This document shows, one piece after another, positions 1 through 53,431 of a DNA stretch of 54,104 nt. Both the position numbers and the translations under genes were made by a program. The stretch comes from Chiloscyllium plagiosum. Taxonomy: Eukaryota. Position 1 is the stretch's first letter. Every line of letters begins with the position of its first letter. The stretch spans positions 57,237,684 to 57,291,787 of the forward strand of contig NC_057726.1 of NCBI RefSeq assembly GCF_004010195.1, in the 5' to 3' direction. The notes below the pieces were generated by a model. The model was not told the DNA's origin, ran no database searches, and worked only from the letters and a program-made list of their open reading frames with translations.

Positions 1-44
1 AGAGGGGGGGCGGGGGAGAGAGAGGGGGGGCGGGGGAGAGAGAG
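1..44. repeat. G-rich 20-bp tandem repeat (agaggggggg cgggggagag) x2, truncated by window edge
   Basis: Bases 1-20 and 21-40 are identical. Confidence 0.8.
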
Positions 45-84
45 GAAGCTTGGCACCTCCCCCCTTCAGTACAGACTCAGGTGT

Positions 85-1095
85 TTATCGCATCGAGGGC
101 GGCCATTCCGCCCATCGTATCTGCTCTGTTCAACAATGCGGGTGAATACCTAAACAGCGTTTAAATGTTTCCAGATCGCGGCAGGGCCTCCACCCCCCTT
201 CTGGGTGAAAACATCTCTCAACATTCTTCTTAACTTTCTACCTCGGGTCTGCGGCGGAGGGACGGGGGCCTCGAGGTTTTGTAGCGCCGTCAAAGCTCGG
301 AACACAGCGGGCAGCCTCGGAGAGGCCGCGGGTAAATGGAGCTGCGGCCGCTCCGGGTTCCTGCAGCTCACTGCCCGGACACTCACAGCCAGACACCGGG
401 GGGAAGGGAAGGCCAGCGACCACCTCTCCCCCGGGCAACCAGCTCCAAATAACTCAACACCGGGAACGCCTGTGAAGGAAAGGCCCCTGAGGAGCACACA
501 GCCCGGCACAATAAACCACCCTGTCACCGTCCGCTCGACCCGCCGAAATTCTGATCCAGAACATTCCAGGAGGAGGCGTAGCAAGAACCACGCATGCGTA
601 GCTTGGGAGTCTCCATGGAGAAGGGGGCGGGGGCAATAGAGCGGCGCAGGCGCATCACGCCAGCCAAAGGGGCGGGGTCTCAGGGACCGATTGAGGGAAC
701 TGGCAGCGGCGCAGTCGCGTGCATACGCGCTGGGAAAAGGGGCGGGGTCTCCCCGCAAGAGTGGAGCGGGTCTGGATCCGGAGTGACGCAGGCGTAGTTA
801 GGTGTTTCCGGACGGAATGGGCGTGGTCCCGTCGGAGGGGGCGGGGCCGAGCTGCCCGTCGCCGTGTTCCCGCCGTTACGCCGAAACTTTGCACGAGAGA
901 GGACGGAGAGTACGCGGCGGGAAAGTGCGGGGTCGGGGTTTGGCGTCCGACCCGGACGAGAGGAGCCGTGTCCGGGACCGGGCGGGGCCGCGCTTTACGA
1001 CCGAGGCTCCGCCGCCGCTGCGCCTGGGAATTTCCTGATGTTACGCCGCTGATGCACTCTGGGAAACTTCCTGCGCTCACGTGATCGCAGGCGGA
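85..1095. promoter_or_regulatory. CpG island / TATA-less housekeeping-type promoter, possibly bidirectional
   Basis: Very GC- and CpG-rich against a CpG-depleted background. GC boxes GGGGCGGGG at 624, 669, 739 and ~837; NRF1-like CGCATGCG (591) and GCGCAGGCGCA (644); CRE half-site TGACGCA (784); E-box TCACGTGA (1077). Confidence 0.8.
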
Positions 1096-1352
1096 TGTGA
1101 GGCAATTGGAAGGTTTGAGGATTCCCCTCCTCCTCCTCCTCCCCTTACAAACAATCTCCTCAAAGTTTGCTGCATCTGGCTCCACAAGGAGCAAATTCCC
1201 TTCCCATCTCTGCACAGGCTTGTTCACTGAGACTTTGCACTTGAGCATCTCTCCCCTCATCACCCCACTGAGTGCAACAGTCTCACCATCATCATCACCC
1301 TTACATCTTGTAACCCACTCCCACTATCACCCAACAAGAGACATAGGACACT

Positions 1353-2510
1353 ATGGCATTCCCCATGGGCATTCCTCTCTACACAATTATTGTGGAAGAT
1401 GAGGAGGAGGAGGAGCAGCAGCGAATGGAGGCCAAGAGGATACGGCAGCATGGCAAAAGACATCACCCAACCAGGTACTATCCACCTCAGCGTATCTACA
1501 GGCAACGCAGGTCCTTTGAGGACCTGTCGGAGGATCTCTGCATTCGGAGGGTGCGATTATCTAAGGGTGCCATTGCCAATCTGTGTGAACTCCTTCGTGA
1601 AGATCTTCAGCCGCACTCCACTGCCAGGACAGCCTTGTCTGTTGAAATGAAAGTGACCACCGCTCTGAATTTTTTTGGCACTGGATCCTTTCAAGGCGCC
1701 ACAGGGAACATGTGCAATATCAGCCAAGGAGCGGTGAGGGCAGCTATTCAACAGGTCACGGATGTGCTCTTTAACAGAGCTCCAGGATTCATCAACTTTG
1801 GCATCACGCCGAGGCAACAGAGGGAACGAGCGAAGGAATTCTGTTACATTGCGGGATTTCCCAAAGTTCAAGGTGCCATAGGTGGCACCCATGTAGCACT
1901 GAAGGCACCAGCAGAACAGCCACTTATATTTGTGAATAGGAAAGGATTCCACTCATTAAATGTTCAAATTGTCTGCGATGCTCACCAGAAGATCCTGTAT
2001 GTAAATGCTAAGCATGCAGGAAGCTGTCATGATGCTGTAATTGTACAGCACTCAACTCTCCCTGACCTCTTCCATGAAGATAACCACGTTCAAGGATGGC
2101 TTCTTGGAGACCAGGCATACGCATTGCAAACGTGGCTCATGCCTCCACTCAGCCAACCGAAAACCCAGGCCGAGGAAGCGTACAACAAAGCACAGGCAGC
2201 AACGCGGGCTGTGGTGGAGAGGACCATAAGACTGTTAAAAAGCAGGTTTCGTTGCCTGGATAGATCCAGTGGAGCTCTGCAATACACACCCCAAAGGGTG
2301 GCACGAATTGTCATAGCATGCTGCGTGCTGCACAATTTTGCGCTGCAGGAAGGCCACCTATTTAACATAGATGATGAGGAGCCACTGCTGCCTGAGGAAA
2401 GGGAGTTGCAGGCCCCCCCGTTTGAGGAGGATGAACAGTTGGAGGATTCATCTCTGATTGCTGCGAGGGCCATCCAAAATCAGATTGTGCAGGAAGAGTT
2501 CAGCCATTGA
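1353..2510 (+). CDS. Harbinger/PIF transposase-derived nuclease (HARBI1-like, DDE_Tnp_4 family), intronless, 385 aa; first catalytic Asp replaced by Gly
   Basis: Uninterrupted ORF with Kozak ACTATGG. Harbinger motifs: ALSVEMKVTTALNFFGTGSFQ (HTH region), FPKVQGAIGGTHV, FVNRKGFHSLNVQIVCD, GSCHD, WLLGDQAY, RAVVERTIRLLKSRFRCLD, CCVLHNF. AATAAA at 2726-2731. The N-terminus does not resemble canonical HARBI1, so no symbol is given. Confidence 0.9.
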   Translation: MAFPMGIPLYTIIVEDEEEEEQQRMEAKRIRQHGKRHHPTRYYPPQRIYRQRRSFEDLSEDLCIRRVRLSKGAIANLCELLREDLQPHSTARTALSVEMKVTTALNFFGTGSFQGATGNMCNISQGAVRAAIQQVTDVLFNRAPGFINFGITPRQQRERAKEFCYIAGFPKVQGAIGGTHVALKAPAEQPLIFVNRKGFHSLNVQIVCDAHQKILYVNAKHAGSCHDAVIVQHSTLPDLFHEDNHVQGWLLGDQAYALQTWLMPPLSQPKTQAEEAYNKAQAATRAVVERTIRLLKSRFRCLDRSSGALQYTPQRVARIVIACCVLHNFALQEGHLFNIDDEEPLLPEERELQAPPFEEDEQLEDSSLIAARAIQNQIVQEEFSH

Positions 2511-3874
2511 CGATGTAGCAGTTTTCTCTTTCTTTGTCAAATACCAAGCAAGTTATCTTCCTTGAAACCACTACCAACCTTAGTACATGACTGCTGAGCA
2601 GCCCTCAATGCCCAAAAAGCACTGTGACAATATTTATGACCGGAGTATATATGTTCACGCCAGTTAAATGTTCCTGTTCTGAAATGACTTTGTTATTCAC
2701 GAGTGACCAGTGCAAAATGTACAGTAATAAAGACATGTTGTACAGTAGAAGCAAATGGATATAGTGCTTGTTATTTACATCCTGATTCATCTTGATGATA
2801 GGCTATCACTTCCGATCTCAGTCATTGGTTACTACTGCTTTGTACAACCTGAGGGCCAGGCTGACAGGTGATGAGTGGCACCACCTGCTGTACTGAAGGG
2901 GCCATAGGACTGAAGTGGCTGTCAACCCATTGGCGGCTGGGGCGTATTGAGGAGCTGCTGCTGGCTGTTTATCTGGACGGAGCTCATGGGCAGCCTGGTC
3001 TCGTCTATTGTCATCAAAGCGTGAGGAGGACTGGCATATGCCATTGTCCTGAGAGGTGCCAGGATCAGGCAGGTGGATTTGAGTCATCAAATGGAGCTTA
3101 AGCTGCCCACTGCACTTTCAGGCCAGAACACAATTAGGCCAGAACTTGCACCACCTCATATGTAGCTGTTTACCCAGGAAATTTGCATGAGATACCTGCT
3201 CCTGCTTGTGAACAGCATAACTTTCTAATGCAGTGGACGTAGCAAATTGCAGTATTAACAGCATTGTTTTGGGTAATTGGATTGTTTGCAAACTGCTCTT
3301 TCAAATCTCTAGCAAATGTAGGTGTAGTGTTTACATAATGAATGCAAAACTTTTCTAAACTCATAACGCTAATTGTTTTGCAAATATAATGGATCTCCCC
3401 ATACCTGTCAAAGGGAGTGTTCTGTGATAATTCTCACATTTGCTCAAGGATGCACTGGTGTTTGCAGTGAATGTGTCTTCTCCTGTTTGACTTTGTGCAT
3501 TAAATAACTTCAAGTCACTAATGGACAAAACAGCAAAATACTATTTACGGTAACCACTAACTTTAACTTAATAGCTGTACGTTTTACTATTCCTATGAAG
3601 TAGAAAATGTCAGTGTTAGTGAACTGATGGATCAAAATGGACTTGAAGTAAAATCCTCCAGGATTACATATAATAAGGTTGTTCACCTGCTTACTACATC
3701 AATTACAAATACAGTAGCACTATGTCAAATATGCACACTGCATGTAGCTGTGCTGTAGCTTGTAGCTCTACTTTGGAGGAGAAATCTCTAAATCTGGTGC
3801 ATTGTAAATAAGGGAGGGCTCTTGTCAGAAGTAATTGTTTTTAGACCATTCCTGAGATTTAGAGAAAATAATCT

Positions 3875-48519: not shown

Positions 48520-48897
48520 CTTCCAAATCAACCTGTTGGACTATAACCTGGTGTTGGGTGTTTTTTTTTTAAAACAAAAATCAAAATCCTGAGATTTGCA
48601 TTTTTAACTTTGTCCACCCCAGTCCAACACCGGCCCCTCCAAATGCTGAGATTTGTAGGTCGGTTGAAACTCCCAGCCACCAGCCTGAGCAGCACAGTTT
48701 GGGGGGGGGTTTGTGACTGAGCTGGTTACGGAAGAGTTGCTCAACGCCCTTGAGGAAAGCAGCACTGTCGGAGCCTAGACTCTCAGGGAGGGAGGGACTT
48801 CAAAACTGAAACCTCCAAGGTGAAGTGAGCAGCTCGGCCGGCTGGGGGAGGCTTCCTTGCAGCACAGCAGCGGCGGGACAGTCTGAATGCTGCGGTC

Positions 48898-49106
48898 ATG
48901 GAGAGCACGTTTGGAAAGCAGCATTCTCCCGGGAGGGCTGAGGGACGGCTGAAGGAGAGCCCGGCAGGTCACTTCACTTCCATCGCGCCGAGGGACTTAG
49001 GGCAACGGTGCTGCATCGCCTACGGGGGCTTCGGGAAGGTTTACAAAGTCTGGCACCGCTCCTGGGGGATCTGGGTCGCAGTCAAGTTGCTCAGACTGAA
49101 CGGGAG
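48898..49106 (+). CDS. ripk3: Receptor-interacting Ser/Thr kinase (RIPK3-like), coding exon 1
   Basis: IAYGGFGKVYKVWHRSWGIWVAVKLL is the RIPK Gly-loop plus VAVK lysine. Kozak GTCATGG; donor AG|GTAAGG, phase 2. RIPK3 versus RIPK4/ANKK1 assignment is tentative. Confidence 0.8.
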
Positions 49107-50167
49107 GTAAGGAACCATTCTCTGTCACAGGGGCGTGGGCAGATCAGCGACTGGTTTACTGTAACTATGATTTCCATTAGTTCCCATTAGCGACCGTCCT
49201 GGTGAGGAAGTTGCTCACTGGTCACTTTTACACCTTCAAGAGACTTTCCACTCATCACTGTACAGCCCCACTGCGGCTGGTGAACGGATATCCAGCCGGA
49301 ATCTACTGACCAACACGCAACAGTTTCCACGAGATCTTTGCACAGAAAGTTTCATCGTCGCGCAGACGCCATTAAACTAGTTTGGAATTTCAGATGTCTT
49401 ATTGAATGCAATGCAGATTTTGCCATTTAGAATGATAGAGATGGACAACATACAAACAACTCATACTATTTCCGTACAACTGGTCCATACCGACCAGAAA
49501 TCCGCAATTAATTCGAGTCCCATTTGCTAGTATTTGGCCCATATCTCTCTAAACCCTTCCTATTCATATACCCACCCCAGATGCCTTTTAAATGTTGTAA
49601 TTGTACCAGCCTCCACCACTTCCTCTGGTAGCACCTTCCATACACCTGTGTAAAAATGTCACTTTGAAATCTTTCCCCTCTCACTTTAATATTACCCTGA
49701 GAAAAAGACCTTGGTTACTCATCTTATCAACCTCCCACCGTGATGCTATAAACTTCTATAAGGTCACCCCTCAGCCTCCTACCCTTCAGGGAAAATAGCC
49801 CCCTGTCTAATCTAGACCCTGCCTATTCAGTTTCTCCCTTTAGCTCAAACCCTCCAGCCCTATCAACATCCCAGTAAATCTTTTCTAACCCTTTCAAGTT
49901 TGAACCAAACGTCCAGAGACTTAGCTCAGTCTAATGGCCAACCTCGATTACTAGCGCAGTGACACTAGTACTGCATCCTCTCTGGTCATCCGGGTGAATT
50001 GGACTGGCAACTGTCGAACTTCCTGCAGCACTTTCTCCTCTGATTTGAAATTTCCAGCATCTGCGCCATTTTGCTTTTATTAGACAACTGGGTATCTTCT
50101 TAACCACACAGGACCACCGAATTAGTATGGTACGGAAGGAGGCCATTTGGCCCATCATGTGAGGTTT

Positions 50168-50257
50168 TGGCAGTACTGGGATTTAAACCAATAACTCAAT
50201 TGAGACTGGAGTTTTAAAAACCAAATCTAGCACCTTAGATCTTTCAGACATGTCACC
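50168..50257 (-). pseudogene. Degenerate tRNA-Leu-like pseudogene
   Basis: Reverse complement ggtgacatgtctgaaagatctaaggtgctagatt...ctccagtctc...ggtttaaatcccagtactgcca aligns by eye to tRNA-Leu (GGTCTAAGGCGCTGGATT..CTCCAGTCTC..GGTTCGAATCCCACCGCTGCCA). Confidence 0.6.
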
Positions 50258-50337
50258 ACAGATCAGTATCACACAGTACAGGATCTAAACATTTAGAATA
50301 ATGAATTTGATGTCAAATCAGGCACGTAAAGCAAAAT

Positions 50338-50810
50338 AAACCTTGAAAGGGTTCAGAAAAGATTTACAAGGATGTTGCCAGGGTTGGAGGATTTGAGCTA
50401 AGAGGAGAGTTTGAATAGGCTGGGGCTGTTTTCCCTGTAGTGTTGGACAGTGAGGGATGACCTTGTAGAGGTTTATAAAATTATGAGGGGCATGGATAGG
50501 ATAAATAGACAAAGTCTTTTCCCTGGGGTGGGGGATTCAGAACTAGAGGGCATAGGTTTAGGGTGAGAGGGGAAAGATATAAAAGAGACCTAAGGGGCAA
50601 CTTTTTCACACAGAGGGAATGGGCTGCCAGAGGAACTGGTGGAGGCTGGTACAACTGCAACATTTAAGAGGCATTTGGATGGGTATATGAAAAGGAAGGG
50701 TTTGGAGGGATATGGGCCGGGTGCTGGCAGGTGGGACTAGATTGGGTTGGGATATCTGGTCGGCTTGGAGCAAAGGATCTGTTTCCATGCTGTACATCTC
50801 TATGACTCTC
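50338..50810 (+). mobile_element. CR1/HER1 3' end
   Basis: LERVQKRFTRMLPGLE remnant and tail ctgtttccatgctgtacatctctatgactct. An opposite-strand copy lies at ~49430-49900. Confidence 0.8.
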
Positions 50811-51533
50811 TGAATGCAAAATTGGACTCTGCTTCTGATAGTTCCTTGAGACAAAGAAGATACTTACACCTTCTGTGCTCATTGAAGTTCTGGAGGGAGG
50901 CTTGAATCGTGAACGTCAGATTTAAGAGGTGGGGATACTATTGCATTGCACCAACAGCCCTTCGCTTAATCAATTAAGAGAGGTATGAGAGAGACAGAAA
51001 ATAGCCACAGTGATTGATGGGTTTTGCAGCACAGTGATAGTGACTGACTCACAGAGCTAAATAGTCCAGGTTTAAGTCATACCTGCCCAAGAGGTATGTT
51101 ATAACATGCCTGAAGAGATGAATTAGAAATTTTTGCTTTAAAGAAGGGAATTGATGTGTGTGGAGGGGGTGGGGGTGTTGGAGAAGAAAGCTACAACAAA
51201 TAAAAGCTGAAGGATTGAGTCTTCATAATTGCGATACTGAACTTTCAGGGGTTATTTGACAGAAATCACACCAGTAAAAGTGGTAATTAGAACGGGATGA
51301 AGCCCTGTGTGGAGTCTGGTTTAAAGCTGTCATATAAGGACATGTGTTGCAGCATGCAGTGAGGTGTTTCCAGGAAGTTAATGGCAGAACAGTGCGTCTC
51401 TCACAGCCACAGCTGTGCTTATCCAAGTACCTTGGGAATGGGCTGCCAGAGGAAGTATCCAAGTACCTGGCCCAGTTTAACATTGCTGTGTGATTTGTGC
51501 ATTAATGATGGTGGCTGCCATTAACCTCATCAT

Positions 51534-51733
51534 TGGGCGAGAGTGAGGGCTGCAGATGCTGCAGATCAAGTCGAGGGTGAGGTGCTGGAAAAGCACAGCA
51601 GGTCAGGCAGCATCCGAGGAGCAGTAGAGTCAACATTTCAGGCAAAAACCCATTCCTGATGAAGGGCTTTTACCCGAAACGTCAACTATCCTGCTCCTCG
51701 GATGCTGCCTGACCTGCTGCACCACACTCTCGA
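51534..51733. mobile_element. Family B fold-back element with hammerhead motif
   Basis: Inverted arms; ttcCTGATGAagggcttttacccGAAAcgTC at 51653-51683; 15-bp TSD cattaacctca(t/c)cat at 51519 and 51734. Confidence 0.8.
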
Positions 51734-52449
51734 CATTAACCTCACCATGACCTTCCAATAAACTCTTGACCGTTTGCAGAGGTTCCTGTAATTTGGTGCA
51801 GGTTCTGTCATTCTGTTTTATTCAGAGAATGATTGCTGTTTGTCAGGGTTTTAGATACAGGTAGCATTCGATTGTGTCTTCAACTTAACAAAGACGTTCA
51901 AGTTATTTAAAAAAAAACTTCAGTTTAAAGAAGAGGCAGTCATTTGGAATGGTATCTTTATTCATCGCTGACTAGGCAGCATTTATTGCCCATCCAGAGG
52001 GCAATTAAGAGTCAACTACATTGCTGTGGGTTTGGAGTTTAATGGCGGCCAGACCGAGTAAGGATGGCAGCTTCCTTCCCTTAAGGACATTAGTGACCAA
52101 GATAGATTTTCCCAATAATCGACAAAGGATTTGTGGTCATTGTTAGACTCTTAATTTCAGATACTTATTGAACTGAAATTCCACCATCTGCCCTGGTGGG
52201 ATTGGAACCCAAGTTTCTGGGTTAACAGAACAGCAATAATACCCCTCAGCCATTGCTTCACCTGTGGATAATATGCACCCCTACAAAGGGATAATAAGCT
52301 CACACCTTTATCAATCACAAAACTACTGGAGAAATGAGATGGGGGTACAATAATATTCTGACCACTGTTTTTCAATCATTTAAAAGAAACACACTTTAAT
52401 AATCTATTTTATTTCTCTTTGAGAAATTTGTGCTGCTGTCATTTTTTTT

Positions 52450-52745
52450 AGGTTAGACTCCCTACAGCATGGAAACAGGCCCCTTGGCCCAACAAGTCCA
52501 CACTGACCCTCCGAAGAGTAAACCATTTCCCCACCCTATATTTACCCCTGACTAATGCACCTAACATTATGGGTGATTTATCATGGCCAATTCACCTGAC
52601 CTGAACATCTTTGGATTGTGGGAGGAAACCGCAGGAAACTCTCATGCAGACGGGGGGGGAACGTGCAGTTTCCACACAGAGGAAACTGCCTGAGGTAGGA
52701 ATCAAACCCAGGTTCCTGGCCCTGTGAGGCAGCAGTGCTAACCAT
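52450..52745 (-). mobile_element. HE1 V-SINE
   Basis: Reverse-complement HE1 sequence. Confidence 0.85.
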
Positions 52746-53065
52746 TTGTCTACATCACACTGACATCTGTGCTTCAGAAGTGCTTTATTGTCTGTGAAGT
52801 GGTTTGGGGCATTCTGTGGATGTGAAAGGTGCCATGTTAATGCAGGAAAATGTTGCAGCAATGTTAATGTTTTTAGTCTAGTGAAGGTATCATTTGTGTA
52901 TGTTACTCTCGTAAATCCCAGCTGTGATATTGCCACGTGATTAGTTCTCGCTTGGCCACGGTAGGATTGTAGGGAACGAGCTGGATGGGATCTGAGAGGT
53001 TGAGGCTGGGATGGCGATGAACTATGTCACTGTGGTATCTCTCTGTGACCTGTTTACCATTACAG

Positions 53066-53375
53066 TGACAAAAAGGAGTTGTTGGAGGAAGCAAAGAAGA
53101 TGTATCGAGCACAATTTGAGCATATCCTTCAGTTGTATGGAGTTGTGGAAAATATGATGGATAGACATCCATCATTGGGATTGGTAACAGAATTCATGGA
53201 GGTCGGATCATTGGATAAACTCCTGAAGAACTATGATGTCCCTTGGCCTCTCCGTATGCGTTTTGCATATGAAATTGCTTTAGGAGTCAACTACCTACAT
53301 AACCTGGAGCCAGCTCTCTTTCACCATGACTTGAAACCTGCCAATATTGTATTGAATAATGACTATCGTGTGAAG
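53066..53375 (+). CDS. ripk3: RIPK3-like kinase, coding exon 2 (subdomains III-VIb); gene continues beyond the window
   Basis: Acceptor ttacag| joins in phase (SDKKELLEEAKKM...LVTEFMEVGSL...PWPLRMRFAYEIALGVNYLH...HHDLKPANIVL...RVK|gtatat), ending just before the expected DFG exon. Confidence 0.85.
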
Positions 53376-53431
53376 GTATATGGAGTATATTGTTCTATCA
53401 CCTAAAATGCCAATGTTGATGCCCTCTTTGA

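What the first reader, a model, noticed from the sequence alone, without database searches (positions are those of the whole stretch)
591..2731. Candidate domesticated, catalytically altered Harbinger transposase gene under a CpG-island promoter
Seen: a fully open 385-codon ORF in a window where the other transposon ORFs are broken. It has a housekeeping-type CpG island upstream, a poly(A) signal downstream and no evident terminal inverted repeats. The conserved GAIDGTH reads GAIGGTH (GGT at 1881-1883, residue 177); the second D (GDQAY) and E (VVERTI) remain, and YNxAH reads YNKAQ. Known: Harbinger transposases have been domesticated repeatedly (HARBI1; plant ALP1, a catalytically impaired PRC2 antagonist) and work with Myb/SANT partners. 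Inference: a cartilaginous-fish domestication distinct from HARBI1, possibly a non-catalytic chromatin scaffold.
Basis: partly seen in the sequence, partly recalled or inferred. Interest (0 to 1): 0.75.

Follow-up and report, generated by a model that had tools for sequence, protein, structure and literature searches.

The report
Shark-and-ray tamed transposase, cutting site lost
A gene that sharks and rays took from a Harbinger jumping element is kept as a single, 93-100% conserved copy lacking its first DNA-cutting residue, and likely now serves as a non-cutting partner of a DNA-binding protein in gene regulation.

Summary
Observation confirmed and domestication well supported. The 385-codon ORF (1353-2510) is single-copy in this genome. 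It has orthologues in 7 named sharks and 5 named rays at 93.2-99.7% identity; the neighbouring kinase is only 48-71% identical. Both genes lie on the same contig in 6 of 6 testable species. The first catalytic Asp is Gly in 16 of 16 orthologues but Asp in 55 of 55 non-chondrichthyan homologues; D253 and E289 are kept. The fold is predicted intact (pLDDT 89.6). It is not HARBI1: 38% identity, and an AU test rejects a shared clade (p=8e-5). It nests in a cartilaginous-fish Harbinger radiation. Four other intact, conserved genes of that radiation exist in this genome; three have lost other catalytic residues. No TIR family, target-site duplication or neighbouring Myb gene was found. Expression, loss of cutting, a Myb/SANT partner and a chromatin role are inferred by analogy with ALP1, HDP1 and HARBI1, not shown. 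Nine literature searches found no description. The scan holds no note on this gene, only one on a similar pair in another genome. Verdict: new member of a known kind.

The parts
1..1100 (.). CpG island, likely promoter; GC boxes at 624, 669, 739, 838 and NRF1-like sites at 591, 644, 787, 1086 (consensus motifs recalled)
   Evidence: 64% GC and CpG obs/exp 0.92 over 1-1100; 1.15 over 591-1100
1353..2510 (+). Single coding exon, 385-aa domesticated Harbinger transposase (DDE_Tnp_4 domain at residues 177-328; helical N-terminal region about 60-147)
1881..1883 (+). Gly177 (GGT) in place of the first catalytic Asp
   Evidence: Gly in 16 of 16 orthologues, Asp in 55 of 55 non-chondrichthyan homologues
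2109..2111 (+). Asp253, second triad residue, retained
   Evidence: 16 of 16 orthologues
2217..2219 (+). Glu289, third triad residue, retained
   Evidence: 16 of 16 orthologues
2229..2231 (+). Arg293 in place of a Gly found in 52 of 55 outside homologues; a second fixed change, on the helix that carries E289
2726..2731 (+). AATAAA, candidate poly(A) signal (use not shown)
48898..49104 (+). First coding exon of the downstream RIPK-like kinase with death domain; synteny marker, not part of the element

Best explanation
This is a host gene of sharks and rays derived from a Harbinger transposase, fixed as one highly conserved copy with its first catalytic Asp replaced by Gly, that likely no longer cuts DNA and likely acts as a scaffold carried to chromatin by a Myb/SANT partner. 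Shown: origin, single copy, conservation, shared chromosome with the neighbouring kinase, and the fixed Gly. Predicted: an intact RNase H-like fold. Inferred: (1) a Harbinger element inserted next to a RIPK-like kinase gene before sharks and rays split, came under a CpG-island promoter and lost its ends and its Myb gene; (2) loss of Asp177 removed metal-dependent cutting while selection kept nearly the whole surface; (3) the protein binds an unlinked Harbinger-derived Myb/SANT protein through its N-terminal half, which imports it and targets it to DNA, where the pair would modulate a chromatin complex as ALP1-ALP2 and HDP1-HDP2 do. Rough odds: domestication 0.97, no cutting 0.85, Myb-partner chromatin role about 0.55.
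For: Single copy: of 107 scored candidates only the locus itself exceeds 49% identity; a DNA search gives only short 65-90% pieces elsewhere. Twelve named orthologues at 93.2-99.7%, against 47.6-70.5% for the neighbouring kinase in 7 matched species. All 5 listed coding differences in close relatives are synonymous. Of 59 family-conserved columns 51 are kept; the N-terminal helical region is invariant at 89 of 102 positions and the core at 140 of 165. Model pLDDT 89.6, pTM 0.85; best structural matches are DDE transposases (Z 9.6 piggyBac, rmsd 5.1, 232 aligned). Sixteen Myb/SANT-domain loci exist elsewhere in the genome (11, 6, one shared). Precedent: PMC4671723 (ALP1 has lost triad residues; one triad mutation drastically reduces Ping transposition), PMC5339849 (HDP1-HDP2), PMC7282668 (Ping nuclease N-terminal half binds its Myb protein), PMC9392472 (HARBI1-NAIF1).
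Against: No partner, nuclear location, chromatin link or expression was shown. No Myb gene lies in the window, the 60 kb upstream or the 30 kb downstream (these stretches contain N gaps), whereas insect co-domestications are often adjacent (PMC9710019). D253, E289, D209 and D227 are invariant in all 16 orthologues, more than a pure scaffold obviously needs. In Stegostoma the accession numbers are about 400 apart, and accession order is only a proxy for adjacency. Up to 12 differences in the organism-C contig were not displayed.
Confidence: 0.5

Rival explanations
1. Domesticated, but working without a Myb partner: it binds DNA through its own helical N-terminal domain, or binds other proteins.
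For: No neighbouring Myb gene here or within 20 kb of three of the four paralogues; the fourth lies on a 7-kb contig. Basic clusters at residues 28-68 could act as an import signal. Transposase-only domestications are reported in insects (PMC9710019).
Against: Characterised cases (HARBI1, ALP1, HDP1) all use a Myb partner; HARBI1 needs NAIF1 for nuclear import (as cited in PMC9710019). Unlinked Myb loci are plentiful here.
Confidence: 0.17
2. A dominant-negative guard against Harbinger transposons: it joins or sequesters active transposase/Myb complexes and poisons them.
For: Its sister lineage is a transposon-like family that mostly keeps the first Asp and left broken copies in this genome (L006, L007, L012). 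A dead active site in an otherwise conserved enzyme suits a poison subunit.
Against: No intact multi-copy Harbinger family was seen among the scored hits here (lower bounds), yet the gene stays over 99% identical among carpet sharks. Very slow evolution is unlike an arms-race gene (general knowledge).
Confidence: 0.13
3. It keeps a changed catalytic activity (one-metal nicking or end binding), with a nearby conserved Asp (D209 or D227) standing in for D177.
For: D253, E289, D209, D227, R285 and K296 are invariant in 16 of 16 orthologues, and the fold is predicted intact.
Against: D177 is present in 55 of 55 outside homologues; D227 is general to the family (54 of 55) and so is not a compensatory gain. 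Overall invariance is so high (312 columns) that keeping these residues says little.
Confidence: 0.13
4. It is the elasmobranch orthologue of HARBI1, rapidly diverged or retrocopied.
For: Databases label it 'putative nuclease HARBI1'. No closer HARBI1 match was found in this genome (best 40%).
Against: 38% identity to the HARBI1-like P0197; nested in a chondrichthyan clade with support 100/93; AU p=8.4e-5 against a joint clade. The same label is given to unrelated transposases from shrimp, ticks and oysters.
Confidence: 0.04
5. A recent or still mobile transposon copy, or an assembly error at codon 177.
For: A 14-nt perfect inverted pair flanks the gene.
Against: Single copy, orthologues in 12 species, Gly in independent data, and no TWA duplication or TIR family.
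Confidence: 0.01

Closest known systems
HARBI1 (jawed vertebrates; partner NAIF1)
   Same: Host gene from a Harbinger transposase; same Pfam domain; similar size; strongly conserved.
   Different: Separate origin (38% identity, AU test rejects a clade). The HARBI1-like P0197 keeps D, D and E whereas this gene has G, D, E. Single coding exon here; HARBI1 is listed with introns (PMC3257199). Seen only in elasmobranchs.
Arabidopsis ALP1 (with ALP2; PRC2 antagonist)
   Same: Domesticated Harbinger nuclease with a broken triad, conserved and syntenic.
   Different: ALP1 has DGA, losing the second and third residues (PMC4671723); here the first is lost. No PRC2 link or partner shown here; independent origin.
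Arabidopsis HDP1 (with HDP2; histone acetyltransferase complex)
   Same: Triad not conserved; no TIR or TSD (PMC5339849).
   Different: Partner and complex are known for HDP1 and unknown here.
Insect DPLG/APLG/LPLG/BPLG genes
   Same: Several independent PIF/Harbinger domestications within one lineage (PMC9710019), like the set of elasmobranch paralogues.
   Different: Several insect cases have the MADF gene adjacent; none is adjacent here.

Membership tests
PIF/Harbinger transposase protein family | DDE_Tnp_4 domain and Harbinger sequence motifs | tested here: met
   PF13359 E=8.8e-37; 51 of 59 conserved columns kept
PIF/Harbinger transposase protein family | RNase H-like DDE fold | tested here: met
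   Confident model; top matches of the first, shallower model are DDE transposases and integrases, Z 7-9.6
Active Harbinger transposon | Complete D-D-E triad | tested here: not met
   G177/D253/E289
Active Harbinger transposon | Terminal inverted repeats with TWA target-site duplication | tested here: not met
   Only a 14-nt pair without TWA flanks that is not a dispersed family
Active Harbinger transposon | Multiple near-identical dispersed copies | tested here: not met
Active Harbinger transposon | Second, Myb-like gene within the element | tested here: not met
   No Myb match in the window, 60 kb upstream or 30 kb downstream; N gaps limit the upstream part
HARBI1 orthologues | One clade with HARBI1 and high identity to it | tested here: not met
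   38% identity; AU p=8.4e-5. P0197 is unnamed in the calls; it was recognised as HARBI1 from recall
HARBI1 orthologues | HARBI1 genomic position (next to ATG13; recalled) | tested here: inconclusive
   The ATG13 family search rang nowhere; downstream neighbour is a RIPK-like kinase; upstream neighbour not identified
Domesticated Harbinger transposase genes (ALP1/HDP1/DPLG kind) | Single copy at a fixed, shared locus | tested here: met
Domesticated Harbinger transposase genes (ALP1/HDP1/DPLG kind) | Purifying selection | tested here: met
   93-99.7% protein identity across sharks and rays; 5 of 5 listed coding differences synonymous; no formal dN/dS
Domesticated Harbinger transposase genes (ALP1/HDP1/DPLG kind) | Transcribed and translated | tested here: inconclusive
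   Single contigs of 4 runs span the ORF, but the runs' RNA status is only a guess
Domesticated Harbinger transposase genes (ALP1/HDP1/DPLG kind) | Binds a Myb/SANT partner and a chromatin complex | not testable with these tools

The most novel reading that the evidence does not exclude
Sharks and rays run their own Harbinger-derived regulatory system in place of HARBI1: at least five independently tamed transposases, with different parts of the active site knocked out (GDE here; DDR/DDK, DSR and DDK in three paralogues; a DDE/GDE mix in a fourth), pair combinatorially with a dozen unlinked Myb/SANT proteins or with each other. This gene is the ultra-conserved core member.
Probability: 0.2. 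Interest if true: 0.78.

Novelty: new member of a known kind. Interest (0 to 1): 0.55.

Why it matters
Only one vertebrate gene derived from a Harbinger transposase (HARBI1) is described in the papers read, and its function is unknown. This is a second, independent vertebrate case, and it is hidden in databases under the HARBI1 label. It changes far more slowly than its host-gene neighbour, which points to an essential role in sharks and rays. Together with its paralogues it gives a natural series of active-site knock-outs for asking whether animal Harbinger domesticates are enzymes or chromatin scaffolds. That is testable in skate or catshark embryos. It also answers a stated gap: PMC9179366 found no Harbinger in elephant shark and asked for other cartilaginous fish to be examined.

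Tried and rejected
Expression: no RNA holder listed. Four runs were laid as contigs only and showed no splice joint; a DNA-versus-RNA control could not be run, so expression stays open. Orthologue DNA for dN/dS: a metagenome scan found none. Solved relatives: no PDB chain by sequence profile; Foldseek gave 0 and 1 matches at E<=0.001. True HARBI1 locus in this genome: seven candidate loci and seven were transposon remnants. Marker searches for ATG13 and thrombin light chain found nothing, and the one pleiotrophin/midkine hit was not followed. The upstream neighbour was not identified: 0 of 148 frames matched Pfam (142 of 161 upstream candidates plus 6 window frames). The 99-codon minus-strand frame at 2818-3117 was considered as a Myb remnant; it has no Pfam or locus match. 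A search for shorter forms gave 2 unrelated paralogue fragments; longer or fused forms were not searched. The 14-nt inverted pair was rejected as a TIR family. The ESM Atlas only confirmed the family.

Full report
Observation. The ORF runs 1353-2510 on the + strand and encodes 385 aa, with Pfam DDE_Tnp_4 at residues 177-328 (E 8.8e-37). Codon 177 is GGT. The CpG island is real (591-1100: 68% GC, obs/exp 1.15, window mean 0.31), and AATAAA lies at 2726-2731. The triad positions are G177, D253 and E289. The host is a carpet shark: four paralogues in this genome are 100% identical to proteins labelled Chiloscyllium plagiosum.

Copy number. A protein search of the genome scored 107 of 7787 candidates. 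Only the locus itself is above 49% identity; four other full-length open frames appear at 44-49%, one at 27%, and the rest are partial or carry stops (one search agrees). A DNA search with 1000-3100 found only short pieces elsewhere (7 of 7 scored). One perfect 14-nt inverted pair flanks the gene. It is rarer than chance in a post-hoc test (1 of 300), but it lacks TWA flanks and is no more common in the genome than its control, so it is not evidence of a live element.

Orthologues. Two 90% clusters hold 27 sequences, of which 17 were listed and aligned: the query, 7 named sharks (Hemiscyllium, Stegostoma, Rhincodon, Carcharodon, two Scyliorhinus, Pristiophorus), 5 named rays (Pristis, Mobula, Narcine, Leucoraja, Amblyraja) and 4 unnamed. 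Identity of the named ones is 93.2-99.7%. Gly177, D253 and E289 are present in 16 of 16. In 55 non-chondrichthyan homologues position 177 is Asp in 55. The His-to-Gln change is also fixed, but His is found in only 38 of those 55. No chimaera orthologue appeared (best Callorhinchus hit 43%). That absence is weak, since Heptranchias and Heterodontus orthologues were not listed either. The shark-ray split is roughly 250-300 million years old (recalled).

Shared location and selection. The next gene downstream is a RIPK-like kinase with a death domain (exons at 48898-49104 and 53064-53378). In 6 of 6 species where both records give a contig length, the kinase and the Harbinger gene share it. Their accession numbers are consecutive in Narcine and S. 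torazame, 5 apart in S. canicula and Pristis, about 400 apart in Stegostoma and not comparable in Rhincodon; reading accession order as adjacency is my inference. The kinase is 47.6-70.5% identical in 7 matched species, where the Harbinger gene is 93.5-99.5%. Five coding differences listed in close relatives are all synonymous; 31 table rows were not shown, so this is not a dN/dS.

Origin. In a 51-row maximum-likelihood tree (selected rows; near-duplicates left out) the orthologues form a clade (100/100). It is sister (100/99) to a group of shark sequences that mostly keep the first Asp, and it lies inside a chondrichthyan radiation (100/93). The HARBI1-like P0197 falls outside. P0197 is unnamed in the tools and was recognised from recall; it is 38% identical and keeps D, D and E. 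An AU test on 26 rows rejects grouping it with the query (p=8.4e-5). The sister family left broken copies in this genome (L006, L007, L012). Searching the genome with P0197 found no closer HARBI1 (best 40%; 116 of 3306 candidates scored), although PMC9392472 reports HARBI1 in cartilaginous fish; a gap in the assembly could explain this.

A family, not a singleton. Four more intact genes of the radiation have conserved counterparts in other elasmobranchs: L002 (88-97%; DDE in 4 of 6, GDE or GDG in 2), L003 (83-98%; DDR or DDK), L004 (67-79%; DSR, DST, DDR) and L005 (89-97%; DDK in the 2 checked). A further ray group is DDK. Their synteny was not tested. Myb/SANT-domain loci are numerous (11, 6, one shared), but none lies near this gene or within 20 kb of three paralogues.

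Structure. With a 140-sequence alignment the model has pLDDT 89.6 and pTM 0.85. The earlier 17-sequence model (pLDDT 75.8) matches DDE transposases best (piggyBac Z 9.6, rmsd 5.1, 232 aligned). The fold is therefore predicted to be kept while the first metal ligand is gone; 8 of 59 family-conserved columns differ, including G293R on the E289 helix.

Mechanism. Shown: a tamed, single-copy, strongly conserved gene with a broken triad. Inferred: no cutting, because one triad mutation drastically reduces Ping transposition (as stated in PMC4671723). Inferred by analogy: binding to a Myb/SANT partner and action on chromatin, as for ALP1-ALP2 (PMC7282668), HDP1-HDP2 (PMC5339849) and, for binding and import, HARBI1-NAIF1 (as cited in PMC9392472 and PMC9710019). 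Against this stand the lack of any partner evidence and the invariance of the remaining acidic residues. The rivals are a Myb-independent role, a dominant-negative guard and an altered enzyme. Expression is not shown.

Literature. Nine full-text searches found no description of this gene. I read parts 1-2 of 9 plus passages of PMC9392472, and passages only of PMC9179366, PMC4671723, PMC9710019, PMC5339849, PMC10288884, PMC3257199 and PMC7282668. Figures and supplements were not seen; those of PMC9392472 may list shark sequences. Kapitonov and Jurka 2004 and Sinzelle 2008 were seen only as citations. Subscription journals and Repbase were not searchable. The scan's notes hold nothing on this sequence and one similar case in another genome.

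Verdict. A real and apparently undescribed elasmobranch domestication, distinct from HARBI1, of a well-precedented kind. Interest 0.55.

Noticed in passing
G000 C1:69923286 (L002), C37:6093030 (L003), C88124:602 (L004), C11:67421373 (L005): Four more intact single-frame Harbinger-transposase genes with conserved counterparts in other elasmobranchs; three have lost the second Asp and/or the Glu, and one is mixed across species.
   Followed up: partly
G000 C31:21591956-21592885 (L047): A sixth intact, more distant Harbinger-type ORF (374-codon frame, triad D-S-D), outside the chondrichthyan radiation.
   Followed up: partly
G000, whole genome: No canonical HARBI1 was found in this assembly (best match 40%); either an assembly gap or a loss in this lineage.
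   Followed up: partly
L032-L041, L089-L093: About 16 Myb/SANT-domain loci, mostly with open frames, including similar pairs (L036/L037, L038/L040); candidate partners.
   Followed up: partly
window 48898-53378 and L079-L081: RIPK-like kinase with a death domain that evolves fast (48-71% identity across elasmobranchs) and is named inconsistently (RIPK1/2/4, ANKK1-like); it has its own CpG-rich start near 48750-49750.
   Followed up: partly
window 61-74 and 2888-2901: Perfect 14-nt inverted pair around the gene, origin unexplained; the same word occurs in a 114-bp tandem array on contig C97410.
   Followed up: partly
window 2818-3117, minus strand: GC-rich 99-codon open frame just downstream, convergent with the gene; no family match.
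   Followed up: partly
window 1038, 1052, 1095: Three upstream ATGs between the CpG island and the start codon; a second in-frame Met at codon 5 is the start called in two unnamed orthologues.
   Followed up: no
P0009 (Carcharodon), P0138, P0007: The same Asp-to-Gly change at the first triad position appears in other elasmobranch Harbinger genes on separate branches.
   Followed up: no
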